NCBI GenBank assembly: GCA_023480885.1
Contig: JAMCWX010000066.1
Location: forward strand, 37,467 to 101,466
Reading direction: 5' to 3'
Origin: Chloroflexota bacterium
GTDB taxonomy: Bacteria; Chloroflexota; UBA6077; FW602-bin22; JACPRP01
DNA: 64,000 nucleotides
The translations under genes were made by a program, and so were the position numbers. The notes below the pieces were generated by a model. It did not search any database, was not told the origin of the DNA, and worked only from the letters and a program-made list of their open reading frames with translations. This document shows, piece after piece, positions 4,926 through 61,542 of the stretch; positions within the stretch are counted from its first letter, which is position 1, and every line of letters starts with the position of its first letter.

Positions 4926-4973
4926 ATTCTTGCATCTGAATGGATTTCGGCGTTGGGACGGTAACTCTTGGCT

Positions 4974-11853: not shown

Positions 11854-11859
11854 GAGGTT

Positions 11860-39758: not shown

Positions 39759-39851
39759 AGGGCTCGCTTGGGCTATCCCCCACATTCGAGGCAGTGGGCT
39801 CACATCCGCTCAAATGCCTCGTCAAGGTCTTTGAAAGGAAGGTCCCTAACT

Positions 39852-40907
39852 GTGAAGCCAAGAGATAGGCTACTTATGGCGATCAAACATCAGCAGCCCG
39901 ACCTGGTGCCCTTGTTCATCCGCTACGTCGGCGCTGTGAGCAGCAAACTCTCCCGCATTCACGGCATCGCCGGACGCGACCTAGAAATCAAGCTTGGCAA
40001 CGACGGCGTGATCGTCCAGATCGGCATCAACGCCGAGTACAGCCATAAAGTGGTGCCCGATGGCGAGCGCTGGACTAGCGAATGGGGCGTTACCTACGAG
40101 GGTATGCGTGGCATCAGCCAGCCCGTTGACCATCCACTTAAGGAGCCAGATGTCTCGGGCTATATATGGCCCGATCCTCATAAGCCCGAGAGGATGGCCG
40201 AGATCAAACAGGCGATGGCCAGGTATCATAGCGACTACGCGGTGATGGTCGACCTCTCCTGCACCTTTCTGGAGGCAGGCTACGCGCACCTCCGAGGCAT
40301 GGAGAAGTTCATGATGGATCTTCACCTCAGTCGGGACTTCGCCTGCCAGGTGCTGGATGGCCTCAACACCTATTACACTGCCCTCGGCGTACACGCCATT
40401 GAGCAGGGAATCGACATCATTCGAATCGGCGACGACATCGCTGGACAGAATGGTATGCTCGTGCCCCCGAAGTTGTGGCGCGAACTGGTAAAGCCGCGAA
40501 TGGAATCGATGATCCACGCCTTCAGGAAAGCCAACCCAAACATCATCGTCAAATATCACTCGTGTGGCGATTTCAGCGCTATCATCCCCGATCTCATCGA
40601 CCTGGGCGTCGACTTCATCGGGACGATGCAGCCCTGCGGCCAACAGGTGGATATGGCAGCCATTAAGGCGAAATACGGCGACAAGCTGGCCTTTCTGGGC
40701 GGCCTGGACACACAGCAGCTTCTGCCAAACGGCTCGCCCGAAGAGGTGCGGGAGGCTGTGAAAGACGTCCTGCGTAGCTACGCGCCAGGCGGCGGCTACG
40801 TTTTTATGCCAGGGCACTACGTCAACTTGGACGTGCCGCTAGAAAACGTCTGGGCGCTGCTCTCGGCGGTGCACGATTACCGCAGGTATCCTTTGAACTT
40901 CGATTAG
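39852..40907 (+). CDS. UroD/MtaA-family (MT2-type) methyltransferase 1
   Basis: Uroporphyrinogen-decarboxylase-fold pattern with a Zn-type HSCG...QPCG motif and C-terminal APGGGYVFMPGH. GTG 39852 lies about 10 nt after AAGGAAGG. The track ORF starts at 39768. Confidence 0.8.
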   Translation: MKPRDRLLMAIKHQQPDLVPLFIRYVGAVSSKLSRIHGIAGRDLEIKLGNDGVIVQIGINAEYSHKVVPDGERWTSEWGVTYEGMRGISQPVDHPLKEPDVSGYIWPDPHKPERMAEIKQAMARYHSDYAVMVDLSCTFLEAGYAHLRGMEKFMMDLHLSRDFACQVLDGLNTYYTALGVHAIEQGIDIIRIGDDIAGQNGMLVPPKLWRELVKPRMESMIHAFRKANPNIIVKYHSCGDFSAIIPDLIDLGVDFIGTMQPCGQQVDMAAIKAKYGDKLAFLGGLDTQQLLPNGSPEEVREAVKDVLRSYAPGGGYVFMPGHYVNLDVPLENVWALLSAVHDYRRYPLNFD

Positions 40908-40942
40908 CCAGCTGAGGCAAGAAGAAGCTTGAGGTGTTCTTC

Positions 40943-41632
40943 ATGGAGATATCTACACAGGACGGTGAACGCTCAATGGCTGAAATAATGAAATCAGGAA
41001 CCCTGGAGAAGCTAGCGCAGGCCGTGCTAGAGGGGGCAGCGGAAGACGCCAAGAGACTTACAGAGAAAGCCCTGTCAGAGAGCTTACCCCCAAACACGGT
41101 TCTCGTCGAAGGGCTCTCGGCAGGAATGACAGTAGTGGGCGGGTTGTTCCGCCGCAACGAGATGTTCATCCCAGAGGTGCTGCTGTCAGCCCGAGCGATG
41201 CGTTTTGGTATGGAAGTGCTTCGGCCTCTACTGGCAGAGACGGGGGCCAAGCCTGTGGGCAAGGTGATCCTGGGAACGGTAGCCGGCGACCTGCACGACA
41301 TCGGCAAGGATATCGTGCACATGATGCTGGAAGGAGCCGGCTTTCAAGTGTTCAACCTGGGCATCAACGTGGAAGCTCATAAGTTCATCGAGGCCTTCCA
41401 AGAACACAAGGCACCAGTCATTGCGCTTTCCGCCCTCCTGAGCACCACTATGCCGCAGCAGAAGGCGGTAATCGAGGCATTCGAGAAGGCTGGCTTGCGC
41501 GGCGAGGTAAAGATACTGATCGGTGGGGCGCCTGTCACTCAAGAATACGCCGATAAGATAGGGGCAGATGGTTTCGCTCCTGATGCCGCTTCGGCAGTAC
41601 TGAAAGCAAAGGAACTCCTTGGAATCAGCTAA
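40943..41632 (+). CDS. corrinoid (B12-binding) protein 1
   Basis: N-terminal helical cap, then a B12-binding Rossmann domain with DxHxxG (GDLHDIGKDIV) and SALLSTT. ATG 40976 is an alternative start. Confidence 0.85.
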   Translation: MEISTQDGERSMAEIMKSGTLEKLAQAVLEGAAEDAKRLTEKALSESLPPNTVLVEGLSAGMTVVGGLFRRNEMFIPEVLLSARAMRFGMEVLRPLLAETGAKPVGKVILGTVAGDLHDIGKDIVHMMLEGAGFQVFNLGINVEAHKFIEAFQEHKAPVIALSALLSTTMPQQKAVIEAFEKAGLRGEVKILIGGAPVTQEYADKIGADGFAPDAASAVLKAKELLGIS

Positions 41633-41659
41633 TCTCCTACTTAATTGCGAGGTGTCGTT

Positions 41660-42829
41660 GTGACAAAAGCGATGACTTCACGGCAGCGCGTGCAAGTGGC
41701 GCTCGACCATCGCGAACCTGACAGGGTGCCGCTTGGCATTTGGTCGACGCTCGACGGCTACAAGAGACTACGATCCTATCTCGGTCTCCCAATCGCTGAA
41801 CAATATCCCGTCGGCTCCACTACATGGTCACGTGACGTTCCCGTCGAGTTCGACGTTATCGATAAGCTCGGCCTGGACGTCATCAGGGTCTGTGGACGAT
41901 GCCCCGGCGGCAAATCCCTGGAGAAAACTCCCGATGGCCTGTGGATCGACGAGTGGAGCGTCAAGAGAAAGCTCGTCGAGCATCCTTCGGGAACGTATCT
42001 CGAAATCGTCAATCCGCCCTTGAAGGACGCCACTGTAGATGACCTGGCGGATTATCCCTGGCCAGACCCATCAGACCCGGCAGTGTGGGAAGGGCTTGAA
42101 GAGAGAGTGAAACGCCTCTACGACGAGACCGACCTGGCCATCCTGGCTCAATTCGGCAGAGGTGGTATCTTCGAGCAGGCCAAGTACCTCCGCGGCTACG
42201 ACACCATTATGTACGATATGGCCGCAAATCCAGAATTTGTTATTGCCCTCTTCGACAAGCTGACGGAGGTCGAGATGAAGTTCAACGAGATCGGCATCGG
42301 TCTCATCGGCCAGTACATCAACATCCTTCGCCTTTCGCCCGAGGACCTGGCCACTGGCGACAGCACCTTCGTCTCGCCAAAAATGTTCGAGCGCATGCTC
42401 AGACCCTATTACAAGCGCAGCTTCTCCCTCGCCAGAAAACTCTTGAAAGAGAAGAATCCTCAGGCGAGGCTGCAGTTCCACAGCTGCGGCGCCGTTTATC
42501 CGTTGCTGAACGCACTCATCGAGGACGGAATGGAAATCTTCGATCCGTTGCAGCCGAGAGTGGCTGAAGGCTCTAGGCCTGCCAGGCTCAAGCAAGCCTT
42601 CGGAGACCGCATCGCTTTCTGGGGAGGAATTGACGTTCAGGTCACGCTTCCACGCGGCACCAAAGAGGAGATCGCCAAGGAGGTCAGGACGAGGATCGCG
42701 GAAGTGGCGCCAGGCGGAGGTTATATCCTCAGCTCCTCACACCGCATCCAACCAGATATCCCTCCTGAGAACGTCGTCGCGATGTATGAAGCAGCCAAAG
42801 AACACGGGGAATACCCGATAAAAGCATAG
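41660..42829 (+). CDS. UroD/MtaA-family methyltransferase 2
   Basis: Same fold as methyltransferase 1 (FHSCGAVYPLL, APGGGYILSSSH), but without the second Cys of the QPCG position. GTG 41660 lies 5 nt after GAGGTG. Confidence 0.8.
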   Translation: MTKAMTSRQRVQVALDHREPDRVPLGIWSTLDGYKRLRSYLGLPIAEQYPVGSTTWSRDVPVEFDVIDKLGLDVIRVCGRCPGGKSLEKTPDGLWIDEWSVKRKLVEHPSGTYLEIVNPPLKDATVDDLADYPWPDPSDPAVWEGLEERVKRLYDETDLAILAQFGRGGIFEQAKYLRGYDTIMYDMAANPEFVIALFDKLTEVEMKFNEIGIGLIGQYINILRLSPEDLATGDSTFVSPKMFERMLRPYYKRSFSLARKLLKEKNPQARLQFHSCGAVYPLLNALIEDGMEIFDPLQPRVAEGSRPARLKQAFGDRIAFWGGIDVQVTLPRGTKEEIAKEVRTRIAEVAPGGGYILSSSHRIQPDIPPENVVAMYEAAKEHGEYPIKA

Positions 42830-42844
42830 TGCGGGGAGATATGC

Positions 42845-43495
42845 ATGGAAATCTTTGAGCAAATCAGCAATGCCGTCATCGAGGGCGAGTTCGGCGAAAT
42901 CACAGACCTTGTGCAGAGTGCGCTCGATCAGGGAATCGGAGCCAACGAAGTCATCCGAGAGGGCCTGTCGAAGGGAATGACTGAGGTGGGACGCCGCTTC
43001 CGCGAAGGCGAATATTTTATGCCTGAGGTCCTGGTTTCCGCCAAGACCATGAACACCGCGCTGTCGATACTGAAACCACTTCTCGTCGGCGATACCACCC
43101 AAGAGAACGTGGGAACCTTTCTTATCGGCACCGTCAAAGGCGACGTGCACGACATTGGCAAGAATATGGTATCCATGATGATGGAAGGCGCTGGCTTTAG
43201 AGTGATCGATATTGGCGTCGACGTAAAGCCAGAGGTCTTCGTGAAAGAGATAACGGAAAAGCAGCCCGATGTCGTTGGACTTTCAGCCTTGCTCTCCACG
43301 ACGATGATCTCGCAGAAAGAGACCATCGAGGCGCTCAAAGAGGCGGGCGTACGAGATAGAGTGATCGTTCTTGTTGGAGGAGCTCCTGTCGACCAAAACT
43401 GGGCCAACACTATTGGGGCAGACGGATATGCTCCCAATGCCAGCGTAGCGGTTGAGAAGGCGAAGGAGCTACTGCAGCGGCGACCCCACAGCTAG
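42845..43495 (+). CDS. corrinoid (B12-binding) protein 2
   Basis: DxHxxG as GDVHDIGKNMV, SALLSTTM and GGAPV. Paralogous to corrinoid protein 1. Confidence 0.85.
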   Translation: MEIFEQISNAVIEGEFGEITDLVQSALDQGIGANEVIREGLSKGMTEVGRRFREGEYFMPEVLVSAKTMNTALSILKPLLVGDTTQENVGTFLIGTVKGDVHDIGKNMVSMMMEGAGFRVIDIGVDVKPEVFVKEITEKQPDVVGLSALLSTTMISQKETIEALKEAGVRDRVIVLVGGAPVDQNWANTIGADGYAPNASVAVEKAKELLQRRPHS

Positions 43496-43521
43496 CTCGA
43501 TCTAGATGAAGGGAGAGACAC

Positions 43522-44070
43522 ATGACCCGCTTAGCGCTAGTAATAGATTTGAACAAGTGCATTCTATGCCACGCTTGCACCGTATCCTGCAAGATTCATC
43601 ACGACCTGCCGCTCGGGCAGTTCTGGAACGAGGTCTTCACTGTCGGGCCAAGCGGAGAGTTCCCGCACACGTCTCTGTATGGATTCCCCAAAGCATGTAT
43701 GCAATGCGACAAGCCCGCCTGTGTTTCCGTTTGTCCAGCAAGGGCCACGGAAAAGGACAAGGAAACTGGGGTGGTCAAAATCTACGAGGACAAGTGCGTT
43801 GGTTGCCGCTCCTGCATCGTGGCCTGCCCTTACGGTGCGCGTGCCTTCGACGAGACTAAAGGAACGACGTTCAAGTGCGAACTCTGCCCAGAGAGGCGCG
43901 AGCAAGGCAAGCAACCCATCTGCGTCGAGACCTGTGTCGGAGGAGCGCGAGTCTTTGGCGACATCGACGACCCAAACAGCGAAGCCTACAAGATCGTTCA
44001 CGAAAAACACGCGGTCAGGTATCTGGAGCATCTGGGCACAGAGCCCTGCACCAGCTACGTGCCAGCCTAG
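43522..44070 (+). CDS. four-cluster 4Fe-4S subunit (DmsB/PsrB-like), no signal peptide
   Basis: LVIDLNKCILCHACTVSCK, CMQCDKPACVSVCP, CVGCRSCIVACP and CELC...CVETC. Confidence 0.9.
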   Translation: MTRLALVIDLNKCILCHACTVSCKIHHDLPLGQFWNEVFTVGPSGEFPHTSLYGFPKACMQCDKPACVSVCPARATEKDKETGVVKIYEDKCVGCRSCIVACPYGARAFDETKGTTFKCELCPERREQGKQPICVETCVGGARVFGDIDDPNSEAYKIVHEKHAVRYLEHLGTEPCTSYVPA

Positions 44071-44120
44071 CTTCAGGACAACGTTCTCTGATTGGCCAGA
44101 GACGAAACAGGGGATGAAAC

Positions 44121-44981
44121 ATGAAAAGACGAAGAGCCAACACGTGGGACATTAGGATCGCCTCTTATCTTTTCCTGGCGGGCGTTGGCGCCGGAGCATT
44201 CGGGTCGCTGGCACTGCTCGATTACCTCGAAGGGGGCAAGCTGCACCTTCCCACCAGCATCACTGCCCTGCTCTCCCTCCTGCTCATAGGCATCGGAACC
44301 TTGCTGCTAGTATCGGACCTGGGAAAGCCACTGCGCTTCTGGCGAGTGCTGTTGAACCCGATGAGTTCTATGCTTTCGGTTGGCGCCTGGATACTGATCT
44401 TGTTCGCCCTCACGATGCTGGGCTACCTGGGCTTCGGGGGACCAGTGTTCAGCCTTGGTGGTGTGGTATTCGCGATAGCAACAGCAGGATACACAGGAAT
44501 CCTGCTGGGAGTAATAAAGGCTAGGCCATTCTGGAATAGTCCCGCGCTTCCACTGCTGTTCGTGACATCGGCCTTTTCCACTGGCATAGCGGTTGTGACG
44601 GTGCTCGCCTCAGCGCTGGTGATCTACGGCCTGGACGCGCAGAGCTCGCACCTGCTCTCGCAGGTCGATCTATGTCTGATCGTCGCCGAGCTAGCAATCA
44701 TTGGTTTGTACTTGACCATCATGAACAATTCCGCCGCGCCTGCGGCCAGGTCGGTTGAGATGTTGCTGAGAGGGAAGCAAGCCAACACATTCTGGGGCGG
44801 GCTGATCTTCGCCGGTCTGGTGGTACCGCTCGTTCTCGCCCTCGCCAGTTCCGAAGGGGTAACGAACCTGCTCTCCTCGATTCTGGTGCTGATAGGAGGG
44901 TTCTCTCTCAGATACACATTCCTGGCGGCAGGAACTCGTGCACTCCTGCCAGGGGAGCCCGCCGAGGCAAGTTACCTGTGA
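44121..44981 (+). CDS. NrfD/DmsC-type membrane anchor subunit
   Basis: 286-aa, about 8-TM protein with IASYLFLAGVGAGAF and SDLGKPLRFWRVL motifs. Confidence 0.8.
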   Translation: MKRRRANTWDIRIASYLFLAGVGAGAFGSLALLDYLEGGKLHLPTSITALLSLLLIGIGTLLLVSDLGKPLRFWRVLLNPMSSMLSVGAWILILFALTMLGYLGFGGPVFSLGGVVFAIATAGYTGILLGVIKARPFWNSPALPLLFVTSAFSTGIAVVTVLASALVIYGLDAQSSHLLSQVDLCLIVAELAIIGLYLTIMNNSAAPAARSVEMLLRGKQANTFWGGLIFAGLVVPLVLALASSEGVTNLLSSILVLIGGFSLRYTFLAAGTRALLPGEPAEASYL

Positions 44982-45006
44982 CGTGGTGGATAGAAGGGAG
45001 GCCTTT

Positions 45007-47220
45007 ATGATCGTAGCGACTGGGAACGAAACCCAAGCAAGCAGCATAACCTCTGCTCAATTCAATACGAATACGTCGCAGACGCGCGTTTACATAGAGG
45101 GTGACGAGAAGAAGGGCGGCTACATCGCCAGCCATTGCCTGCAATGCGTATCGAACTGCGGCCTCCGAGCTTTCGTTAAGGATGGGAAAGTACGTTACCT
45201 CGAAGGGAACCCCCTCGATCCTAACAGCAGGGGCCGAATGTGCGCCAAAGGGCAGGCTGGTGTCCAGCAGATTTACGATCCTGATCGCGTGAAGAATCCC
45301 CTGGAAAGGGTTGGTGAGAGGGGAAGCGGCAAGTGGCGTGACATCTCATGGGACGAAGCCATGCAGAAGATATCCAGCAGGCTGCGGAGGCTGCGAGACA
45401 GCGGACATCCTGAACAGTTCGTGTTCTACAGCGGCCGCAACATGCAGGCCGGTTACACTACTCGCTTCACCAATGCCTTCGGCAGTCCCAACCATTTCAA
45501 CCACGACAGCCTTTGCGCATCAGGACGCCAGATGGCCACGTTACTCACTTACGGAGACACCTGGCCTCAGATGGACATCGAGAACGCCCGCTACGTTCTG
45601 CTGTTCGGCTTCAGCGCCTTCGACGCGGGGATTTGCTTCGTTCCTGCCGCCCAGAGGCTGGTAAACGCTTTGAGCAAAGGTGCGAAGCTCGTCGTCGTGG
45701 ACCCCAGGCTGAGCAAGACGGCCGCCAAGGCCAGCGAATGGATTTCCATCGCGCCAGGGACCGATGCAGCCCTGGCTATGGGCATAATGAACGTCATAGT
45801 CTCCGAGGGCCTCTACGACCGCGAATTCGTGGAACATTGGACCGTCGGGTTCGATGATTTCGTCGAGAAGGAGTTGAAGCGCTTCACACCAGAGTACGCA
45901 TCGAGCATTTGCCGCGTGCCAGCAGAGAAAATCGGGGAGCTAGCGTGGGACTTCGCCACAACGAGGCCGGCCGTTGCGGATGCGATGCGAGGAGTGTCAG
46001 CTCATACGAATGGCACCGTGTCCATACGCGCAGTGATGGCGCTAAACGTCTTGCTTGGAAATATCGATGACATCGGTGGAATGAACCTGGACTTCGGCTG
46101 GTGGAACATCGGCCTGGGCGCTGTGGATCCCGTCCCACCGGCTCCCAAAGAGACGCGAAGGCTGGACCGTCTGGGCACTTCGCAGTACCCGCTGGCCGCC
46201 GTGCCTATCCAGCAGCAAATCCTCCCCTCGATCGCCGAGCGAGATCCGTACCCGGCCGACACCGTGATGCTGTATCACTCGAGTCCAGCCTACGCCATGC
46301 CTGACCCGAAGAAACAGATGAACATACTCAAGAATCCCGACAAAGTTCCATTCATCATCTCTGTCGATCCCTTCATGGGAGAGTCGACGACGTTCGCCGA
46401 TATCGTCCTGCCAGAAGGCACCTACCTGGAGAGATATGATGCTGTTTCCTGGCCATACAGCCTGCAATTTACCCCATACGTTTTCCTTCGCAAACCCGTG
46501 GTTCCCCCGCAACTCGAATCGAGAATGGTGAAAGACATCTTGAGAGAGCTAGCTCATCGCATAGGCGGGGGCATGGAACAATACTTCGCCGACGACGCCG
46601 TAGCTTATCATCGAAAAGAGATCGAGGGAATCACAAACGGGCCGTCGTGGGATGAGATAGTTAAGAATGGCGTGTGGGTGGCCCCTGCGAAGCGCGAAAC
46701 CCAAAGGTTCAGAAAGAACGGCTTCTTTACCCCCTCAGGCAAGATCGAGCTCTACAGCAAGCGGATGGATGATGCTGGATTCCCCCCTTTCCCAACCTAT
46801 GTTCCGGTAGCTACCCATGACGCCGAACGCCGGCAGCAATACCCATTCTGCTTGATAACCTACAAGGTGGCGATGCACAACCAGTCGCGCACAGCTAACG
46901 TGCCGTTCCTGGTCGAGGTTATGGACCGTAATTATGCCGAGATAAACCCGAAGTCGGCCGCGAGCCTTGGAATTCGCGACGGCGACGAAGTGTACGTCGA
47001 ATCCGAAATCGGACGCATCGAAGGGGTTGCACGCTTGACCAATGAGATTAGACAGGATACTATAGCGATATCCCATCACTTTGGCCATTGGGAGTACGGT
47101 AGGGTTGCGAAGGGCCGAGGCATTAGCCCGAATCCAATCGTGGCCTGCAACGACGATGGCATCGGCGCCCCGGCGGCCTTCAACAGCACCCTCGTCAGGG
47201 TCTATAAGAAGTTAAAGTAG
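45007..47220 (+). CDS. molybdopterin oxidoreductase catalytic subunit without a Tat signal (substrate unknown)
   Basis: ATG 45007 lies 5 nt after GAAGGGAGG. It has a polar N-terminus, Fe-S motif C-x2-C-x3-C-x27-C (CLQCVSNC...CAKG), candidate Mo-ligand Cys in NHDSLCASG, and 737 aa. Confidence 0.9.
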   Translation: MIVATGNETQASSITSAQFNTNTSQTRVYIEGDEKKGGYIASHCLQCVSNCGLRAFVKDGKVRYLEGNPLDPNSRGRMCAKGQAGVQQIYDPDRVKNPLERVGERGSGKWRDISWDEAMQKISSRLRRLRDSGHPEQFVFYSGRNMQAGYTTRFTNAFGSPNHFNHDSLCASGRQMATLLTYGDTWPQMDIENARYVLLFGFSAFDAGICFVPAAQRLVNALSKGAKLVVVDPRLSKTAAKASEWISIAPGTDAALAMGIMNVIVSEGLYDREFVEHWTVGFDDFVEKELKRFTPEYASSICRVPAEKIGELAWDFATTRPAVADAMRGVSAHTNGTVSIRAVMALNVLLGNIDDIGGMNLDFGWWNIGLGAVDPVPPAPKETRRLDRLGTSQYPLAAVPIQQQILPSIAERDPYPADTVMLYHSSPAYAMPDPKKQMNILKNPDKVPFIISVDPFMGESTTFADIVLPEGTYLERYDAVSWPYSLQFTPYVFLRKPVVPPQLESRMVKDILRELAHRIGGGMEQYFADDAVAYHRKEIEGITNGPSWDEIVKNGVWVAPAKRETQRFRKNGFFTPSGKIELYSKRMDDAGFPPFPTYVPVATHDAERRQQYPFCLITYKVAMHNQSRTANVPFLVEVMDRNYAEINPKSAASLGIRDGDEVYVESEIGRIEGVARLTNEIRQDTIAISHHFGHWEYGRVAKGRGISPNPIVACNDDGIGAPAAFNSTLVRVYKKLK

Positions 47221-47259
47221 CCATAAAAGCACAGCAAAGCCAAGAGGAGACAGCCAGTA

Positions 47260-48132
47260 ATGTTGCGAACCACTATATTCAGCGAGAAGCGAGAAGTGAC
47301 GATAGCACGAGACCTGCCGACCATCCTAATCGGCGAGAGGATCAACCCAACTGGCAAGAGGAAGCTTGCCACAGCGCTTATGGAAGGAAACTGGGATTAT
47401 GTGAAAGAGATGGCCATCAAGCAGGTTGAGGCTGGAGCCCACGTGCTGGACGTCAACGTTGGCGTCGGCGGCATCGACGAAGCGGAGTATCTGGTAGCTG
47501 CCATCAAAGCCGTGTCTGAGGCAGTCGACGTGCCTCTCTGCATTGACTCTTCGGATCCAAAGGCCCTGGCCGCTGCCCTCGGGTCTTATAAGGGGAAGGC
47601 GCTGGTGAATTCTGTCACAGGAGAGGAAGGCAGCCTCGAAACAGTGCTTCCCCTGGTAAAGCAGTACGGAGCAGCCGTTATCGCGCTATGCATGGACGAG
47701 CATGGATGTGCCGTGGATGTCGAGGGCCGCACAGCTGTCGCTAGAAAGATTATCGACAGGGCGGACCGACTGGGCATCCCTCGTGAAGATATCATAGTAG
47801 ACTGCCTTACCATGACAGTTGGAGCCGATTCCAAGGCTGCGCTGGTGACCCTCGAAGCAACAAGCCGTGTTGTCGCGGAGTTTGACGTGAACATAACGTC
47901 GGGCGCCAGCAATATCTCCCACGGGCTTCCGGTGCGCGAGGTGATAAACGCCGCTTTCCTGGCGATGATGATTGCTGCCGGTTTGACGGCGCCCATCGTC
48001 GACCCCACTGCCCCTGGGATAACTCAAGCGATTCTTGCAGCCGACTTAGTGATGGGCCGTGATGACTACGCCGCTCGCTATATTCGCCATTATCGCAAAA
48101 TGATGAAGGCGGCGGCTGCTCGCGCGAATTGA
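47260..48132 (+). CDS. pterin-binding methyltransferase (methyl-THF:corrinoid, MeTr/MtrH-like)
   Basis: Pterin-binding TIM-barrel pattern (ILIGERINPTG, HVLDVNVG, PLCIDSS, LVNSVTGEE, SNISHGLP). Confidence 0.8.
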   Translation: MLRTTIFSEKREVTIARDLPTILIGERINPTGKRKLATALMEGNWDYVKEMAIKQVEAGAHVLDVNVGVGGIDEAEYLVAAIKAVSEAVDVPLCIDSSDPKALAAALGSYKGKALVNSVTGEEGSLETVLPLVKQYGAAVIALCMDEHGCAVDVEGRTAVARKIIDRADRLGIPREDIIVDCLTMTVGADSKAALVTLEATSRVVAEFDVNITSGASNISHGLPVREVINAAFLAMMIAAGLTAPIVDPTAPGITQAILAADLVMGRDDYAARYIRHYRKMMKAAAARAN

Positions 48133-48155
48133 GGTAATTTGTCAGGGAGGACAAC

Positions 48156-48506
48156 ATGACGAAGGACGAAGTCAAGGTTGAGGTATTCGAGAAAGTGTCG
48201 TGCTGTGGCGGTGGCGCCTGCGGCCCCAATGCCGATCCTGAGGCAGTCGCCTTCACGGAAGCAACTTGGAGCCTTCGAAGAAGGGGCATCCCCGTTCATC
48301 TCTACTCTTTGCCCGCAGATGTCAAAGTCTTCGCCGAACACCCGCTGATCAAGAGGCTGATTTCCGAGAGCAAAGGTCCGCTGCTGCTTCCGATCACGAT
48401 AGTGAACAACATTGTCGTCAAAGTCGGCTCCAATCCTACTCTCGCAGAACTCGAAGACGCCCTCGGAATGAACAATCAGCCGGTCCAGGAAGGAACTTCC
48501 GCATGA
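48156..48506 (+). CDS. arsD: arsenic metallochaperone ArsD
   Basis: CC-x4-C site (SCCGGGACGP) and overall collinearity with ArsD (FTEATWSLRRRGIPVHLYSL...LLLPITIVNN). Confidence 0.85.
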   Translation: MTKDEVKVEVFEKVSCCGGGACGPNADPEAVAFTEATWSLRRRGIPVHLYSLPADVKVFAEHPLIKRLISESKGPLLLPITIVNNIVVKVGSNPTLAELEDALGMNNQPVQEGTSA

Positions 48507-49390
48507 GCACAAACTTTGCCTTTGTTTCAGGTAAAGGCGGAGTTGGCAAGACCTCTATTGCCTGTGCCATAGCTTTGTATCACGCCGAACACGGCGAGTA
48601 CACGCTCATTGTCACGACCGACCCCGCTCCCAACCTTTCCGACGTCTTCGAGCAGCCCATAGGGCACAACATCACCGCGATCAACAGCGTCGAGCGTCTC
48701 TCCGCGATTGAGATCGACCCAGACATCACCGCCGAAGAGTATCGGGAGCGCTATCTGGCCCCGCTGCGCGAGATTCTTCCACCAGAGATGGTGGCAGTAG
48801 TTGCCGAGCAACTGGCCTCTCCCTGCACCTCGGAAGTAGCCTCCTTTGACAAGTTTGCCGATTTCTTCGAGGCGTCCGGGGTCGACTTTATCGTTTTCGA
48901 CACGGCCCCTACTGGCCATACAGTTCGCCTCCTGGAACTGCCCGCAGATTGGACGCGGCATATTGATCGCCTCACTGAAGGTGGACATTCGTGCGCTGGG
49001 GCAGTTGCTAATATTAAGGAGTCAAGGGCCAAATATGATCGAGCAGTCGCGGCGTTGAGGAACCCCGAGCAGACGTCGTTCATATTCGTCGTGCAGCCGG
49101 AGGCGACGCCCATTGCTGAGACAGAGCGCACGCTCTCACAACTGGAGCGGGTAGGAGTGACGGCGAAAGAGTTGATTATCAACGGCATCATACCATCGGA
49201 ACAGTGCGAAGTACCCTTCTTCCGGAAGCGGCGCGAAATGCAAGACCACTACATCGAAGAGATACACCGTCGCATCCCGCTGCCAAGCAAGTCCCTTTAC
49301 TTTTTCGATGAAGAGGTCAAGGGTCTGGAAATGATACGTAAGGTTGGAAGGACACTTAATCAGAATGGACAGCTTAGTACGTCCCAATAG
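48503..49390 (+). CDS. arsA: arsenite-stimulated ATPase ArsA, N-terminal (A1) half as a separate ORF
   Basis: The ATG overlaps the arsD stop (ATGA). It has SGKGGVGKTS, DTAPTGHT, and the A1 As-binding Cys equivalents (SPCTSEV, GHSCAGA). It ends at TAG 49388-49390. Confidence 0.85.
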   Translation: MSTNFAFVSGKGGVGKTSIACAIALYHAEHGEYTLIVTTDPAPNLSDVFEQPIGHNITAINSVERLSAIEIDPDITAEEYRERYLAPLREILPPEMVAVVAEQLASPCTSEVASFDKFADFFEASGVDFIVFDTAPTGHTVRLLELPADWTRHIDRLTEGGHSCAGAVANIKESRAKYDRAVAALRNPEQTSFIFVVQPEATPIAETERTLSQLERVGVTAKELIINGIIPSEQCEVPFFRKRREMQDHYIEEIHRRIPLPSKSLYFFDEEVKGLEMIRKVGRTLNQNGQLSTSQ

Positions 49391-50324
49391 GAAAGACGGC
49401 GTGGTGGATATCATCAAGCCAGGGCCTAAGGGTGATAGGATGGTATTCTTCGCTGGCAAGGGTGGTGTCGGCAAAACTTCGACGGCGTGTGCGACTGCCG
49501 TCTGGCTGTCCCGCGCCGGGTACCGCACTCTCCTCTTGACTACCGATCCTGCTTCCCACCTCAGCGACGTATTCGAGCAGCCGGTTACAGATAAGGTGCG
49601 GGAACTCGGTGGCTTGCCTGGATTATTCGCGGCGCGGATTGATCCGAAGCGCGCGGCGGAAGACTACAAGCAGCGCATACTTGACGACATGAAGGGTAAA
49701 CACTCCGCGGATGTGCTGGCCGTCGTCGAAGAGGAACTCGACGCACCGTGCACCGAGGAAATGGCGACCTTCGACCTCTTCGTCTCTTATGCCAGTTCCA
49801 CCGAGTACGACGTGATGGTCTTCGACACCGCGCCAACGGGACACACCCTCAGGCTGCTCCAGCTTCCCATCGAATGGAGCAAGCAGATTCAAGTCAAGGT
49901 ATACGCGTCGGTAGACAGTCAGCAAGCAGGGGAGACGACTAAGGCGAAGTTTGGTCAGGTGATAGATCGCATGCGAGATGTTAGACGCACGACGTTTTCC
50001 TTTATAATGTATCCTGAGGCCACTCCCGTCGTCGAAGCGTATCGGGCGGCTCGTGACATCGAGACGTTAGGTATCAGCGTAGGATTCGTCATAGCAAATC
50101 AAGTGCTTCCCGAAGAGCATTGCACCAACGCCTATTTCAAGAAGCGCTTCGCGATGCAGCAAAAGTACCTTCAGGAAATGAAAGACCGCTTCGGCGTGCC
50201 GATTCTGCAAATGCCCCTGCTGGAGCACGACGTCAGAGGTATTAGCACCTTGATCAGAATAGGAGACGTGCTCTTCGGCCAACCAGTCAGCCCACACTCA
50301 AGGGCGACATCAGCACCATTGTGA
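49365..50324 (+). CDS. arsA: ArsA C-terminal (A2) half as a separate ORF
   Basis: AGKGGVGKTS, DTAPTGHT and the A2 Cys equivalent (APCTEEM). It is in a different frame from A1. ATG 49365 overlaps A1 by 26 nt. ATG 49440 (after AAGGGTGA) is an alternative start. Confidence 0.8.
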   Translation: MDSLVRPNRKDGVVDIIKPGPKGDRMVFFAGKGGVGKTSTACATAVWLSRAGYRTLLLTTDPASHLSDVFEQPVTDKVRELGGLPGLFAARIDPKRAAEDYKQRILDDMKGKHSADVLAVVEEELDAPCTEEMATFDLFVSYASSTEYDVMVFDTAPTGHTLRLLQLPIEWSKQIQVKVYASVDSQQAGETTKAKFGQVIDRMRDVRRTTFSFIMYPEATPVVEAYRAARDIETLGISVGFVIANQVLPEEHCTNAYFKKRFAMQQKYLQEMKDRFGVPILQMPLLEHDVRGISTLIRIGDVLFGQPVSPHSRATSAPL

Positions 50325-50462: not shown

Positions 50463-50491
50463 TTGAATACTGCTTCGTCTTCTTGTATACT
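50463..50491 (+). promoter_or_regulatory. promoter candidate for the multihaem cytochrome gene
   Basis: TTGAAT (50463-50468), 17 nt, TATACT (50486-50491). Confidence 0.45.
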
Positions 50492-50569
50492 GTGAACCGC
50501 TAGGCAACCCTCGATTGTATACCATTATGGGTGAAACCTACCTTCAAATCGAGACCAATGGAGGTCAAA

Positions 50570-51952
50570 ATGGATGACCACTCGGTGTCTTCGGTTGACC
50601 AGCGGCGCATAATCCTCATTTGCGTTGCGCTTGCGATCGCACTGCTTATCATCGTGGCCTTCCTCGGTGGTTGCACCGACCAGAAGGCAACGCCCACGTC
50701 CAAGCCAGCAGCAGAGGTCGCTCCTGCCAGCGCAACGCGCGTTGCCCAACCGACAGCAGCTCAGGGCGCGGCTTCGAAGACAGGACAGGCCGAAACCGCG
50801 AAGCCCCAGGCCACAGATGCGTCCAAGCCAGCCGCTACCCCACAGGCTAAGGAAACGCCAGCAGCAGTCGTTCAGGAGAAAGGGGCCGGGCCAAACATTC
50901 CCCACTCCCCCAAAGGACGTGACGACTGTCTAGCCTGCCACTCCAGACTGGTGGTGTGGCCCGTGCCTGCAAGCCACGAAGGCCGCGGCAATGAGACATG
51001 CCAGGCTTGCCACAAGCCTTTGGCGGGCGGCCCACCAAAGATCGCCCATACACTGGACGGGAAGTCGGACTGTGTAGCGTGCCACGGCGAAGGCAAGCTA
51101 GTCAAGCTGCCGCAGAGCCACGCGAAAAGGACGTCTTCCAACGTGTGCGTTGTTTGCCACCAGCAGACTACCACGCCCACTACTATCGCGCATACGTTAG
51201 AAGGCAAAACCAACTGCACGCAGTGCCACGGCGATGGCAAGATAGTGGCGTTGCCAGCGAGCCACGCCGGCAGAACCGAGCAGATGTGCCAGGTCTGCCA
51301 CACGCAGACGACGACACCCACAAAGATCGCGCACACTCTGGAGGGCAAGACGAATTGCACCGGTTGTCACGGCGACGGCAAACTGGTGAAGCTGCCGCAG
51401 AGCCACGCCGGCAGAACCGAGCAGATGTGCACGCTCTGTCACACGCAAACGACTCAACCCAACACGATCGCACATACGTTGGAAGGAATGACAAACTGCA
51501 CATCGTGCCACGCCGATGGCAAGCTAGTGCCGTTGCCAGCAAGCCACGCCGGCAGAACGGAGCAGATGTGCCAGATTTGTCACGCGCAGACGATGCAGCC
51601 GCCCACCATCGCACACACGTTGGAAGGCAAAGTCAACTGCACGCAGTGCCACGGCACTGGGAAGCTAGTGGCGCTACCGGCTTCTCACGCCAAGAGGACG
51701 GAGCAAATGTGCGCCGTGTGTCACACGAAGACTATGGATCCGCCAAGGGCACCGCACACCACATCTGACAAGCCTTCGTGTATCGCGTGCCACGACGGCA
51801 AGAAGGTGAAGGCGGCGCCAGCGAATACCCACCAGGGTAGGACCGACCAGATGTGCGCTATCTGCCACGCGCCTGTCTCAGGAGGCGTTCCAAAGATACC
51901 GCACACGCTAGAGGGCCGCTCTGACTGCACGATGTGCCACACGAAGCAGTAG
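50570..51952 (+). CDS. lipoprotein-anchored multihaem c-type cytochrome (15 CxxCH) built of tandem modules
   Basis: ATG 50570 lies 5 nt after GGAGG. It has a signal/TM segment ending in lipobox FLGGC, an Ala/Pro/Thr/Gln/Lys-rich linker of about 75 aa, then 15 CxxCH motifs. Confidence 0.85.
   Translation: MDDHSVSSVDQRRIILICVALAIALLIIVAFLGGCTDQKATPTSKPAAEVAPASATRVAQPTAAQGAASKTGQAETAKPQATDASKPAATPQAKETPAAVVQEKGAGPNIPHSPKGRDDCLACHSRLVVWPVPASHEGRGNETCQACHKPLAGGPPKIAHTLDGKSDCVACHGEGKLVKLPQSHAKRTSSNVCVVCHQQTTTPTTIAHTLEGKTNCTQCHGDGKIVALPASHAGRTEQMCQVCHTQTTTPTKIAHTLEGKTNCTGCHGDGKLVKLPQSHAGRTEQMCTLCHTQTTQPNTIAHTLEGMTNCTSCHADGKLVPLPASHAGRTEQMCQICHAQTMQPPTIAHTLEGKVNCTQCHGTGKLVALPASHAKRTEQMCAVCHTKTMDPPRAPHTTSDKPSCIACHDGKKVKAAPANTHQGRTDQMCAICHAPVSGGVPKIPHTLEGRSDCTMCHTKQ
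50897..51949 (+). repeat. intragenic tandem repeat, 141-147-bp period (47-49-aa di-haem module, 7.5 copies)
   Basis: Module starts at 50897, 51041, 51185, 51326, 51467, 51608, 51749 and 51896. Consensus: IAHTLEGKTNCTxCHGDGKLVxLPxSHAGRTEQMCxxCHTQTxxPxx. Confidence 0.9.
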
Positions 51953-51981: not shown

Positions 51982-52013
51982 AAAGCGGCTCCCTATTAGG
52001 GAGCCGCTTTATT
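51982..52013. terminator. bidirectional terminator candidate between convergent genes
   Basis: 12-bp stem AAAGCGGCTCCC/GGGAGCCGCTTT (51982-51993 / 51999-52010), 5-nt loop, flanked by A-run/T-run. Confidence 0.55.
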
Positions 52014-55124: not shown

Positions 55125-55874
55125 TCAGGCCATCGAGTAGCCGCCGTTGACGCTCAACGACTGTCCCGTGATGAAGCTGGCTGCGTCGGAGGCAAGGAAG
55201 ACTACGGCGTTGGCGATGTCCTCTGGTTTCCCCAGCCGACGTATGGCGTAGCTCTTGACCACCTGATCGACGTTATCGCCCAGGAGACCCATCGCCAAGG
55301 GCGTCTCAATCGTCCCCGGCGACACCGAGTTAACGTTGATGCCGTACCGCCCTAACTCCTTGGCGAGCGCCTTAGAGAAAGCGATGATGCCCGCTTTTGC
55401 GGCGGAGTAGGTGACGAGCCTGGCTTCACCTATCTTCCCCGCATCAGAAGCGATGCTAACGATCTTGCCGTAGCGACGATCGATCATGTGCTGTACGACG
55501 GCGCTGGCACAGTTCATTGCTCCGAGAAGGTTCACATTGATGTCGATGTCCCAATCCTTCCTGGTCGACTGCGCGAAGAACTTGTGGAAGGCGGTTCCAG
55601 CGTTGTTCACCAGGATGTCGATCTGGCCGAACTCGGTCAGGACCTTGTCGACCATCGCTCGAACCTGGGCTTCATCGGTGACGTCTGCTTGAATCGAGAT
55701 TGCCTCACCGCCGAACTGATTGATCTCGTCGGCGACGTCCGCGGCAGTGGCGGGATTCTTGTCGGCGACGGCCACACGGGCGCCTTCATTTGCGAAAGCC
55801 AGGGCGATTGCACGGCCGATTCCCTGGCCGCCTCCGGTGATCAAGGCAACTTTGCCTCGCAGGTTAAGCTCCAT
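55125..55874 (-). CDS. short-chain dehydrogenase/reductase (FabG-like)
   Basis: ATG 55874 lies 6 nt after AGGAGG. It has TGGGQGIG, NNAG and the YSAAK catalytic motif. The longer track ORF runs over the tRNA gene. Confidence 0.9.
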   Translation of the reverse strand: MELNLRGKVALITGGGQGIGRAIALAFANEGARVAVADKNPATAADVADEINQFGGEAISIQADVTDEAQVRAMVDKVLTEFGQIDILVNNAGTAFHKFFAQSTRKDWDIDINVNLLGAMNCASAVVQHMIDRRYGKIVSIASDAGKIGEARLVTYSAAKAGIIAFSKALAKELGRYGINVNSVSPGTIETPLAMGLLGDNVDQVVKSYAIRRLGKPEDIANAVVFLASDAASFITGQSLSVNGGYSMA

Positions 55875-55963
55875 AGCAAACCTCCTGGGAAAGGAAGTAA
55901 TGCACGGTAGAAATCGCCTCGGGTGGGGCATTGATGGGCGACCTGGACTGCGGGGACCAGAAT

Positions 55964-56039
55964 TGGTGGAGCTGAGGGGATTCGAACCCCTGGCCTCTAC
56001 AATGCGAGTGTAGCGCTCTCCCGGCTGAGCTACAGCCCC
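55964..56039 (-). tRNA. tRNA-Ala (anticodon CGC), CCA encoded
   Basis: The reverse complement GGGGCTGTAGCTCAGCCGGGAGAGCGCTACACTCGCATTGTAGAGGCCAGGGGTTCGAATCCCCTCAGCTCCACCA folds as a cloverleaf. It has the G3:U70 alanine identity pair and anticodon loop CTCGCAT. Confidence 0.95.
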
Positions 56040-56093
56040 GGCTTGGCTTTGTGCACGATCACATCGTTTCATTAGTGAGCGAGCTGCTTAGAT

Positions 56094-61289: not shown

Positions 61290-61412
61290 TGACACCGACG
61301 TTTGTCGACGCTTCTCCGAGTCTTCCGGCCTAATGGCAATGCCTATGGCTGAGCAGACCGATTCGGGTAGGGGAGGAAACGATCCTGCCTCCGCGTGCTT
61401 GGAAAGGAGAGG
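61290..61412 (+). promoter_or_regulatory. candidate molybdenum-cofactor (Moco) riboswitch
   Basis: The leader contains CTCCGAG (61314-61320), internal hairpins, GCCTCCGCG (61387-61395) and TGGAAAGGAG (61400-61409). These are the blocks I recall as conserved in the Moco RNA motif, and the element lies upstream of mod genes. Confidence 0.45.
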
Positions 61413-61542
61413 GCGCGCTTTTGGGCGACCAGCTATCTCTGCGAAACAGGCACGAGATGCTGGTTTTCTTTTTCTGATTCTCTCAGTAAGGTCGACGCGT
61501 CCTGAAGAAATTCAGCTTTCGCTTGCCAGGGAGTTCTGACGC

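What the first reader, a model, noticed from the sequence alone, without database searches (positions are those of the whole stretch)
50570..51952. Fifteen-haem lipoprotein cytochrome assembled from near-identical 47-aa di-haem cassettes
**Seen in the sequence:**
- A lipobox (FLGGC) is followed by an Ala/Pro/Thr/Gln/Lys-rich tether of about 75 aa.
- The rest of the protein is 7.5 head-to-tail copies of one module, with DNA period 141 bp for the central copies and 144-147 bp at the edges.
- The module consensus is IAHTLEGKTNCTxCHGDGKLVxLPxSHAGRTEQMCxxCHTQTxxPxx.
- The repeat region holds 15 CxxCH motifs and exactly 15 additional His residues (one AHT-type and one SHA-type per module). That is one spare His per haem, as expected for all-bis-His coordination.
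- The central copies are similar even at the nucleotide level, which implies recent expansion or concerted evolution.

**Inference:** A tethered, modular linear haem chain could act as a periplasmic or extracellular electron conduit whose length is set by copy number. It sits directly downstream of the methyltransferase/Mo/arsDA operon, with its own promoter. I do not recognise the module as a described cytochrome family.
Basis: partly seen in the sequence, partly recalled or inferred. Interest (0 to 1): 0.65.

Follow-up and report, generated by a model that had tools for sequence, protein, structure and literature searches.

The report
Tethered fifteen-haem modular cytochrome
A Chloroflexota gene encodes a membrane-tethered protein that strings 15 haem groups together from repeated two-haem modules, most likely an electron wire outside the cell membrane; the module is an already catalogued domain and similar proteins are common in this phylum, so this is a real but fairly ordinary find.

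Summary
One gene (50570-51952, +; 460 aa) encodes a lipobox signal peptide, a 74-aa Ala/Thr/Pro-rich tether and 7.5 tandem di-haem modules. These carry 15 CxxCH motifs and 15 conserved spare His, at 23.4 aa per haem.

- **Not an assembly artefact.** The gene recurs with 0-1 nucleotide differences on three contigs from separate assemblies. The longest exact internal DNA repeat is 31 bp.
- **Cassettes are not near-identical.** Central modules are 72-81% identical in protein and 64-81% in DNA, with many synonymous changes.
- **The module is already catalogued.** It matches Pfam PF09699 (Paired_CXXCH_1) end to end.
- **Relatives.** All named relatives are Chloroflexota MAGs. Orthologues carry 13-16 haems, mostly 15. 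Paralogues fuse the same module to NapC/NirT or cytochrome b domains, and distant arrays reach about 130 haems.
- **Context.** In orthologous loci the gene sits in multi-cytochrome clusters. Here it is solitary and monocistronic, and I found no sign of a link to the upstream Mo/methyltransferase/ars operon.
- **Evolution.** Central modules were homogenised in this lineage while the count stayed at 15.

Best reading: a membrane-anchored, all-bis-His extracytoplasmic electron conduit. It is a new member of a known kind, of modest interest.

The parts
50463..50491 (+). Promoter-like site, TTGAAT-17 nt-TATACT, about 80 nt upstream of the start codon.
   Evidence: Consensus scan found 1 site against 0.4 expected in shuffles. 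This is a consensus match only.
50559..50563 (+). Shine-Dalgarno GGAGG, 6 nt before ATG 50570.
   Evidence: Read directly from the sequence. Gene calls on three other assemblies start at the same ATG.
50570..51952 (+). Coding sequence of the 460-aa pentadecahaem c-type cytochrome, stop codon included.
   Evidence: The exact protein is on record on 4 contigs.
50570..50674 (+). Signal peptide with lipobox: MDDHSVSSVDQRR, an 18-aa hydrophobic core, then LGGC (Cys35).
   Evidence: The core PROSITE-type lipobox pattern matches here and in 6 of 7 orthologues (and the L007 N-terminus printed there). The single-sequence AF2 run predicted a helix over residues 21-47 in 473-aa numbering.
50675..50896 (+). 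74-aa Ala/Thr/Pro/Gln/Lys-rich low-complexity tether.
   Evidence: Composition. Orthologues carry A/P/T/S/Q-rich tethers of 39-76 aa. pLDDT is below 50 here.
50897..51184 (+). Di-haem modules 1 and 2 (48 aa each), the edge-type modules.
   Evidence: Module 1 is positionally orthologous to module 1 of P0001 (58%) and of L007 (62%).
51185..51748 (+). Di-haem modules 3-6 (47 aa and 141 nt each), the homogenised central block.
   Evidence: 72-81% aa and 64-81% nt identity between copies. No positional orthology to the L007 or P0001 modules. AF2 on modules 3-5 gave pLDDT 89.9 and pTM 0.71.
51749..51949 (+). Module 7 (49 aa) plus the terminal half module (18 aa, haem 15).
   Evidence: Module 7 is orthologous to module 7 of P0001 (55%) and of L007 (59%).
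51982..52010 (.). 13-bp stem-loop between the convergent cytochrome and TPR genes. It is terminator-like in both directions.
   Evidence: RNA fold gives -24 kcal/mol, z = -6.2, with 0 of 200 shuffles as stable. Sequence.

Best explanation
**What it is.** The gene encodes a secreted pentadecahaem c-type cytochrome of a Chloroflexota bacterium.

**Anchoring.** The protein is held on the outer face of the cytoplasmic membrane. The anchor is most likely a lipid-modified Cys35. If the lipobox is not processed, the uncleaved N-terminal helix would serve instead. A flexible 74-aa Ala/Thr/Pro-rich tether follows.

**Haem domain.** The 351-aa haem domain consists of 7.5 directly abutting Paired_CXXCH_1 modules. 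Each 47-aa module carries two covalently bound haems and two conserved distal His. The domain contains no Phe or Tyr and only one Trp, so the haems themselves form the core.

**Inferred arrangement and function.** The abutting modules are inferred to place all 15 bis-His haems in one continuous chain. Using about 8 Å per haem, as in MtrA (my own knowledge), the chain would be roughly 12 nm long. I infer that it relays electrons between a membrane quinol-oxidising module and acceptors, donors or partner cytochromes beyond the membrane, acting as a wire that needs no porin sheath.

**Shown:** the motifs, the modularity, conservation of the His and Cys residues, the anchor pattern, the reproducible repeat count, and family membership at the domain level.

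**Inferred:** haem incorporation, bis-His ligation, linear geometry, the direction of electron flow and the partners.
For: - **Motifs.** There are 15 CxxCH and 15 spare His at regular 23-25 aa spacing. The Cys and His of modules 2-7 and the half module are invariant in seven orthologues.
- **Domain assignment.** Pfam PF09699 scores 48.5 bits against a cut-off of 20.6 and aligns exactly to one module.
- **Closest solved relatives.** By sequence these are the Shewanella electron conduits: MtrA (6r2q_A, E = 2e-6 with the whole protein) and MtrF, MtrA, UndA and MtrC with the module profile.
- **Predicted structure.** AF2 on three modules with a 52-row alignment is confident about the relative placement of modules (pLDDT 89.9, pTM 0.71).
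- **Fusion evidence.** The same modules are fused C-terminally to NapC/NirT quinol-dehydrogenase domains (P0002, P0012, P0018) and to cytochrome b domains (P0022, P0256, P0257).
- **Orthologue context.** Orthologues sit in clusters with a tethered 4-haem lipoprotein, 6/7-haem proteins, a roughly 1000-1250 aa 7-haem protein, an NHL propeller, a TPR protein and a two-component system.
- **Anchor.** The lipobox and tether are conserved in 6 of 7 orthologues.
- **The gene is real.** It is identical on contigs from three assemblies whose flanks differ by 5-19 SNPs.
- **Literature.** Surface multihaem cytochromes have been proposed for electron transfer in the monoderm Chloroflexi member Ardenticatena (PMC5808234). 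Multihaem cytochromes are abundant in Anaerolineae (bioRxiv 10.1101/2021.08.23.457424).
Against: - No partner cytochrome, quinol dehydrogenase or cytochrome-maturation gene was found in the 64-kb window. This is the only ORF with 2 or more CxxCH motifs.
- There is no experimental evidence for haem loading, location or expression.
- The PROSITE lipoprotein side-rule (Lys or Arg within the first 7 residues) is not met, Cys35 sits at the upper limit of that rule, and one orthologue (L002) has no lipobox Cys.
- The AF2 model contains no haems and I could not read its coordinates, so the linear geometry is not shown.
- Foldseek found no solved structural analogue (best E = 1.9).
- The envelope type of this organism (monoderm or diderm) is unknown.
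Confidence: 0.6

Rival explanations
1. The cytochrome is the dedicated redox partner of the upstream operon. That operon holds a Psr/Phs-like molybdoenzyme with FeS and NrfD subunits, corrinoid methyltransferases and ArsD/ArsA. The cytochrome would feed or drain electrons for it.
For: It lies on the same strand immediately downstream, 245 bp after ArsA. This synteny is kept in the three strain-level contigs. Some complex iron-sulfur molybdoenzymes do use multihaem subunits, for example Qrc and ACIII (my own knowledge).
Against: The gene has its own promoter-like site and terminator-like hairpin. None of the orthologous loci examined (L001-L007) has this neighbourhood; there the gene sits among other cytochromes. 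The Mo subunit has no twin-arginine signal, so it is probably cytoplasm-facing, whereas the cytochrome is exported. The NrfD subunit already provides quinone coupling.
Confidence: 0.1
2. It is an electron store or buffer (a capacitor), or a diffusing, swinging shuttle on a leash, rather than a fixed trans-envelope wire. The 15 haems would hold charge when acceptors are scarce.
For: The long flexible tether would allow movement rather than fixed docking. Paralogues carry the same di-haem modules as separate beads on long Pro/Thr linkers (P0005, P0010, P0020), which suggests collision-based transfer. The gene is solitary in this genome region.
Against: The 15-haem count is conserved and modules abut directly in the orthologues. 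Inter-module packing is confidently predicted (pTM 0.71). Both fit a rigid rod of defined length. The two roles do not exclude each other.
Confidence: 0.2
3. It is a catalytic multihaem enzyme, such as a nitrite, hydroxylamine, sulfite or metal reductase, rather than a pure electron carrier.
For: Weak NCBIfam hits to NrfH and HmcA. Many multihaem enzymes exist.
Against: Every haem has a conserved spare His. There is no CxxCK motif, no odd motif, and no extra domain that could form an active site. All enzyme-family scores are far below their cut-offs.
Confidence: 0.05
4. The repeat array or its copy number is an assembly artefact, or the ORF is not a real gene.
For: Tandem repeats can be collapsed or expanded by short-read assemblers.
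Against: The same 1383-nt gene occurs with 0-1 differences on contigs from three separate assemblies whose flanks differ by 5-19 SNPs. The longest exact internal repeat is 31 bp. Copies differ at 19-36% of nucleotides. Five complete orthologues at 44-55% identity have the same 15-haem layout.
Confidence: 0.02

Closest known systems
MtrA/DmsE-family decahaem cytochromes (Shewanella; PDB 6R2Q chain A)
   Same: Best solved sequence relative (E = 2e-6; module profile E = 7.7e-6). It shares the Paired_CXXCH_1 type of motif, has a low polypeptide-to-haem ratio, and is an all-bis-His linear chain acting as a wire across an envelope layer (the last point is my own knowledge).
   Different: MtrA has 10 haems rather than 15. 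It has no tandem array of like modules, no lipobox or tether, and works inside the MtrB porin. TIGR03508 scores 59.7 bits against a cut-off of 192.2, so this protein is not a member.
Geobacter polymers of c7-type domains (GSU1996, GSU0592)
   Same: They follow the same design principle: a long haem chain built head to tail from repeated small multihaem domains (my own knowledge). Pfam Cytochrome_C7 (PF14522) scores above its cut-off here (64.7 against 24.8).
   Different: Their module is a tri-haem domain of about 75 aa that includes a His-Met haem, and the proteins are soluble and periplasmic. Here the module is di-haem, 47 aa, with one spare His per haem, and the protein is membrane-tethered.
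Chloroflexota paralogues with the same module fused to NapC/NirT or cytochrome b domains (e.g. P0002, P0012, P0018, P0022, P0256)
   Same: They carry the same H-x7-CxxCH-x11-H-x7-CxxCH module (28-39% identity over 50-69% of the query), come from the same phylum, and have arrays of up to 7-8 abutting modules.
   Different: They carry their own quinol-oxidising membrane domain. In many of them the modules are separated by Pro/Thr-rich linkers. The window protein has only a lipid or helix anchor.
Cell-envelope multihaem cytochromes of Gram-positive metal reducers (Thermincola OcwA and others) and the surface 7-haem protein of Ardenticatena maritima
   Same: The proposed role is the same: carrying electrons outward from the membrane of a monoderm cell (PMC5808234 and references in it).
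   Different: No sequence similarity was detected. OcwA does not appear among the PDB hits, and the architectures differ.
Giant tandem doubled-CxxCH cytochromes in metagenomes (P0122 with 129, P0129 with 131 and P0125 with 82 CxxCH motifs)
   Same: They are arrays of H-x6/7-CxxCH units at 25-28 aa per haem. They hit the query in 9-16 stretches at E = 1e-50 to 1e-79.
   Different: They are about ten times longer, use a different unit consensus (mostly H-x6 spacing), and have no lipobox plus tether architecture.

Membership tests
c-type multihaem cytochromes | Multiple CxxCH haem-attachment motifs in an exported polypeptide. | tested here: met
   15 CxxCH motifs. An N-terminal hydrophobic signal or anchor is present.
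c-type multihaem cytochromes | Covalent haem actually attached, and a maturation system (Ccm or Ccs) present in the genome. | not testable with these tools
   Among the ORFs I scanned in the 64-kb window none is a maturation gene. The rest of the genome was not available.
Paired_CXXCH_1 (Pfam PF09699 / NCBIfam TIGR01905) doubled-CXXCH domain proteins | Profile score above the curated cut-off. | tested here: met
   Pfam gives 48.5 bits against 20.6, with 6 stretches; the best covers residues 125-164 (473-aa numbering) and profile positions 1-39 of 41. The NCBIfam version is below its cut-off (19.9 against 25.2).
Paired_CXXCH_1 (Pfam PF09699 / NCBIfam TIGR01905) doubled-CXXCH domain proteins | Two CxxCH motifs about 24 aa apart within roughly 41 aa, usually in several copies per protein. 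| tested here: met
   Seven full modules of H-x7-CxxCH-x11-H-x7-CxxCH.
MtrA/DmsE decahaem family (TIGR03508) | Profile score above the cut-off, and 10 haems. | tested here: not met
   59.7 bits against 192.2. There are 15 haems.
MtrA/DmsE decahaem family (TIGR03508) | Adjacent MtrB-type porin and MtrC-type outer cytochrome genes. | tested here: not met
   The neighbours are ArsA and a TPR protein. There is no other multihaem ORF in the window.
Polymers of cytochrome c7-type domains (GSU1996 type) | Tri-haem modules of about 70-80 aa, with one His-Met haem per module. | tested here: not met
   Modules are di-haem and 47 aa, with exactly one spare His per haem. The broad Pfam PF14522 model does score 64.7 against 24.8.
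NapC/NirT/NrfH quinol dehydrogenases | PF03264 or TIGR03153 match above the cut-off. | tested here: not met
   There is no PF03264 hit. TIGR03153 scores 28.9 against 134.2. Paralogues do carry this domain.
Bacterial lipoproteins (lipobox, PROSITE PS51257-type rule) | The pattern {DERK}(6)-[LIVMFWSTAG](2)-[LIVMFYSTAGCQ]-[AGS]-C with Cys at position 15-35. | tested here: met
   LLIIVAFLGGC with Cys35. The same pattern occurs in 6 of 7 orthologues.
Bacterial lipoproteins (lipobox, PROSITE PS51257-type rule) | Lys or Arg within the first 7 residues; actual Lgt/Lsp processing. | tested here: inconclusive
   The first 7 residues, MDDHSVS, have no Lys or Arg; the Arg pair is at positions 12-13. The rule is recalled from memory. 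Processing cannot be tested here.

The most novel reading that the evidence does not exclude
The 15-haem count may be a selected 'ruler' length. On this reading the protein is a lipid-anchored, sheath-free haem rod matched to the thickness of the Chloroflexota cell envelope. The central modules turn over by gene conversion or re-duplication, while selection holds the number of haems fixed. It would be the trans-envelope element of an extracellular electron-transfer pathway particular to this phylum. The 47-aa Paired_CXXCH_1 unit would then be close to the smallest autonomous di-haem fold (23.4 aa per haem).
Probability: 0.2. Interest if true: 0.55.

Novelty: new member of a known kind. Interest (0 to 1): 0.3.

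Why it matters
If the inferred role is right, this protein and its orthologues would be a simple, porin-free way for Chloroflexota to carry electrons away from the membrane. Chloroflexota are abundant in soils, sediments and groundwater, so this bears on iron, manganese and humic-substance cycling by an under-studied phylum.

The very small, regular di-haem module could also serve as a scaffold for designing haem wires of chosen length. The pattern of homogenised central modules with a conserved count is a neat case of concerted evolution under a length constraint.

However, multihaem cytochromes built from doubled-CxxCH units are already known to be plentiful in these genomes. The find therefore adds a well-defined family rather than a new principle.

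Tried and rejected
- **AF2 on the single sequence** gave a useless model (pLDDT 36.5).
I rebuilt it from window sub-sequences and protein-search hits.
- **A profile search of the 5.8-billion protein set** with the orthologue alignment returned only P0001 and P0121 as near full-length relatives. It did not recover the GTDB orthologues.
- **Exact look-up in the cluster table** found nothing, although look-up of encoding contigs did find the protein.
- **The neighbouring TPR protein.** I compared it with the TPR protein of the orthologous clusters and found only generic TPR similarity (best segment 35% over 69 aa). I do not claim a link.
- **A functional link to the upstream Mo operon.** I considered and rejected this.
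- **A subtilase fusion as a general feature of the large 7-haem neighbour.** It holds only in L003.
- **Literature searches** for the Pfam/TIGRFAM names found only passing mentions.
Full report
**1. The observation**

The ORF list shows one long + strand frame, 50531-51952. The sequence upstream of the third in-frame start has a GGAGG box 6 nt before ATG 50570. Independent gene calls on other assemblies use that ATG and give a 460-aa product.

The translation contains 15 CxxCH motifs spaced 23-25 residues apart. There are no variant motifs. Of 31 His, 15 lie in the motifs, 15 are spare His in the repeat region, and one lies in the N-terminal n-region.

The haem domain dissects into seven 47-49-aa modules of the form H-x7-CxxCH-x11-H-x7-CxxCH plus a final half module. 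The DNA periods are 144, 144, 141, 141, 141, 141 and 147 nt. Tandem Repeats Finder and the repeat finder both see the 141-nt period.

The N-terminus is MDDHSVSSVDQRR, followed by an 18-residue hydrophobic stretch ending in FLGGC (Cys35), and then a 74-aa tether made mostly of Ala, Thr, Pro, Gln and Lys. The haem domain is 351 aa, or 23.4 aa per haem. It has no Phe or Tyr and only one Trp.

The four central modules are 72-81% identical in protein and 64-81% in DNA. Between 25% and 54% of codons for conserved residues carry synonymous differences.

**2. The array is not an artefact**

The exact 460-aa protein is encoded on four contigs. I compared three of them, from two ENA metagenome assemblies and NCBI MAG GCA_027400055.1. 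The 1383-nt gene differs from the window at 0, 1 and 0 positions, while the 6 kb of flanking sequence differs at 5-19 positions. They are therefore separate strain-level assemblies of the same array. The longest exact repeat inside the gene is 31 bp, shorter than typical short reads. Five complete orthologues at 44-55% identity show the same 15-motif layout.

**3. Transcription unit and surroundings**

- A promoter-like TTGAAT-17-TATACT lies at 50463-50491.
- A 13-bp hairpin lies 30 nt after the stop codon, between this gene and the convergent TPR gene (-24 kcal/mol, z = -6.2).
- Upstream on the same strand are, in order:
  - two MtaA-like methyltransferase and corrinoid-protein pairs;
  - an FeS protein;
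  - an NrfD protein;
  - a 760-aa Psr/Phs-like molybdopterin oxidoreductase;
  - a methyl-tetrahydrofolate methyltransferase;
  - ArsD and two ArsA genes.
- The Mo subunit has no twin-arginine motif.
- No other ORF in the 64 kb has two or more CxxCH motifs.
- The opposite-strand ORFs over the repeats have no support and are by-products of the G+C-rich repeat.

**4. What the module is**

Pfam assigns the protein to Paired_CXXCH_1 (PF09699, 'doubled CXXCH motif') at 48.5 bits against a cut-off of 20.6. The best stretch covers profile positions 1-39 of 41 and corresponds to exactly one module. The broader Cytochrome_C7, Cytochrom_CIII and MtrC/MtrF domain II/IV models also score above their cut-offs. 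So the module is a catalogued domain.

NCBIfam models for whole-protein families are all far below their cut-offs: DmsE/MtrA, OmcA/MtrC, GSU2203, NrfH, CctA and HmcA.

The nearest solved structures by sequence are the Shewanella conduits: MtrA (6r2q chain A, mislabelled in the PDB name field; E = 2e-6) and MtrC. With a 39-module profile the best hits are MtrF, MtrA, UndA and MtrC at E = 1e-3 to 1e-6. No close structure exists.

**5. Relatives**

- *Size of the family.* A word-indexed search of 5.8 billion proteins found 154 hits at E <= 1e-5, the best at 48% identity (P0001). An exhaustive HMMER scan of 1.84 billion cluster representatives found 1010 hits at E <= 1e-3, 336 at E <= 1e-10 and 44 at E <= 1e-30.
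- *Taxonomy.* Nearly all source names are Chloroflexota (two are Rudaea sp.), and so are all 26 GTDB loci: Ktedonobacterales, Anaerolineae, Dehalococcoidia and Chloroflexia MAGs from groundwater, sediment and soil.
- *Other architectures with the same module.*
  - 12-haem proteins of about 360 aa.
  - 8-haem proteins of about 270 aa.
  - Proteins in which di-haem modules are separated by long Pro/Thr linkers.
  - C-terminal arrays on NapC/NirT tetrahaem domains.
  - C-terminal arrays on cytochrome b domains.
- *Largest arrays.* Distant arrays of similar H-x6/7-CxxCH units reach 82-131 haems.
- *True orthologues* (lipobox, tether, abutting modules). P0001/L001, L002, L003 and L007 have 15 haems, L005 has 16 and L004 has 13. 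L006 is truncated. P0121 has 14 haems behind an extra N-terminal domain.
- *Anchor.* Six of seven orthologues keep the lipobox pattern, and tethers are 39-76 aa.

**6. Evolution of the array**

Between L001 and L003 the module identity matrix is diagonal-dominant (55-78% on the diagonal). The 7.5-module layout is therefore ancestral, and each position has its own identity.

In the window protein and its closest relative L007, modules 1 and 7 still match their positional counterparts (58-62% and 55-59%). Modules 3-6, however, resemble one another: 72-81% within the window protein, 60-70% within L007, and 53-70% between the two with no diagonal signal. They match the modules of P0001 only at 36-52%.

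The central block was therefore homogenised in the common ancestor of these two lineages, by gene conversion or by replacement with re-duplicated copies, and homogenised further in the window lineage. The total stayed at 15 haems. The heavy synonymous divergence shows that this is not recent.

**7. Context in relatives**

Four of the five complete orthologous loci examined (L001, L002, L003, L005) place the gene in a co-directional multi-cytochrome cluster; L007 keeps only a two-component system upstream and a 7-haem protein downstream. The cluster members seen across these loci are:

- a HisKA_3 kinase and a LuxR-type regulator;
- a TPR protein;
- an NHL beta-propeller;
- a 4-haem protein that itself has a membrane anchor (with a lipobox in L003), a Pro-rich tether and two Paired_CXXCH_1 modules;
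- one or two 6/7-haem proteins;
- the 15-haem protein;
- a 1000-1250-aa protein with seven C-terminal haems. In L003 this protein also carries a subtilase domain.

None has the Mo/methyltransferase/ars neighbourhood of the window.

**8. Most likely mechanism**

Taken together, the protein is best read as an exported, membrane-anchored, all-bis-His haem chain that relays electrons outside the cytoplasmic membrane. Five points support this:

- one conserved distal His per haem;
- a polypeptide too small to do more than wrap the haems;
- directly abutting modules with confidently predicted mutual packing;
- kinship to the MtrA/MtrC conduits;
- the 'Rosetta-stone' fusions of the same arrays to quinol-oxidising NapC/NirT and cytochrome b domains.

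Surface multihaem cytochromes have been proposed for electron exchange in the presumably monoderm Chloroflexi member Ardenticatena (PMC5808234). Multihaem cytochromes are noted as abundant in Anaerolineae (bioRxiv 10.1101/2021.08.23.457424).

The chain length (about 12 nm if spacing is like MtrA), the direction of flow, the partners and the lipid modification are inferences. The rival readings are listed with their tests: partner of the upstream Mo enzyme, charge store or swinging shuttle, catalytic enzyme, and artefact. The first is disfavoured by the lack of conserved synteny and the missing Tat signal. The last is excluded.

**9. Novelty and score**

This is a well-defined, previously uncharacterised family within a known kind: multihaem c-type cytochromes built from doubled-CxxCH domains. 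The design principle, a wire assembled from repeated small multihaem domains, is already known from Geobacter c7-domain polymers and MtrA. Far larger arrays of related units exist in metagenomes.

What is mildly notable is the purity and economy of the architecture, the conserved count of 15 despite module turnover, and the lipobox-tether anchoring in a phylum whose electron-transfer machinery is not understood.

I rate it a new member of a known kind, with interest 0.3.

Noticed in passing
window 39768-50324 (+): An unusual operon mix. It holds two MtaA-like methyltransferase and corrinoid-protein pairs, then an FeS protein, NrfD and a 760-aa Psr/Phs-like Mo-oxidoreductase. The best model for the Mo subunit is PhsA at 448 bits, below its 694 cut-off, and the subunit has no twin-arginine signal. 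A methyl-THF methyltransferase, ArsD and two single-domain ArsA ATPases follow. The substrate and logic are unknown.
   Followed up: partly
window 61302-61425 (+): A Moco (molybdenum/tungsten cofactor) riboswitch, Rfam RF01055 at 58.9 bits against a gathering score of 36. It lies upstream of an ABC-transporter ATPase gene at 61858-62979.
   Followed up: no
window 55967-56039 (-): A tRNA gene (Rfam, 69.6 bits). It overlaps the 5' extension of the mechanically listed short-chain dehydrogenase ORF 55125-56072, whose true start must lie further downstream.
   Followed up: no
window 25324-27711 (-) and 30819-32324 (-): A second molybdopterin oxidoreductase (795 aa) and a HisKA_3 sensor kinase. This is the same kinase type that precedes the cytochrome clusters in relatives L003 and L007.
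   Followed up: no
window 4968-6149 and 8241-13149 (+): A third ArsA-family ATPase with an HSP20-like C-terminal domain. Tetrapyrrole-synthesis genes are also present: a fused uroporphyrinogen-III methylase/synthase and a class-III aminotransferase (HemL-like).
   Followed up: no
L003:11676-15413; L002:3278-6571; L004:1191-4214; L005:11543-14539: Directly downstream of the orthologous 15-haem genes lie 1000-1250-aa proteins with seven widely spaced C-terminal haems and a large N-terminal region with no Pfam match. In L003 that region contains a subtilase (Peptidase_S8) domain with a fervidolysin-like prodomain, making a protease-cytochrome fusion.
   Followed up: partly
L031:2-293 (strain variant, ENA ERZ27237183): A 96%-identical fragment of the same gene reads CAVWH instead of CAVCH at the haem-12 site, 41 nt from the contig end. 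This is probably a contig-end error. If real, it would be a natural haem-site knockout. Two further amino-acid differences (S to A, I to T) are present.
   Followed up: partly
proteins P0005, P0010, P0011, P0020, P0021 (relatives): The same di-haem module occurs as isolated beads separated by 40-140-aa Pro/Thr/Ala-rich linkers. This implies that the 47-aa unit folds on its own. It also raises the question of how electrons pass between beads.
   Followed up: no
proteins P0122, P0125, P0129 (distant relatives): Giant predicted cytochromes of 2281-3592 aa with 82-131 CxxCH motifs. They are built from related H-x6/7-CxxCH units at 25-28 aa per haem.
   Followed up: no
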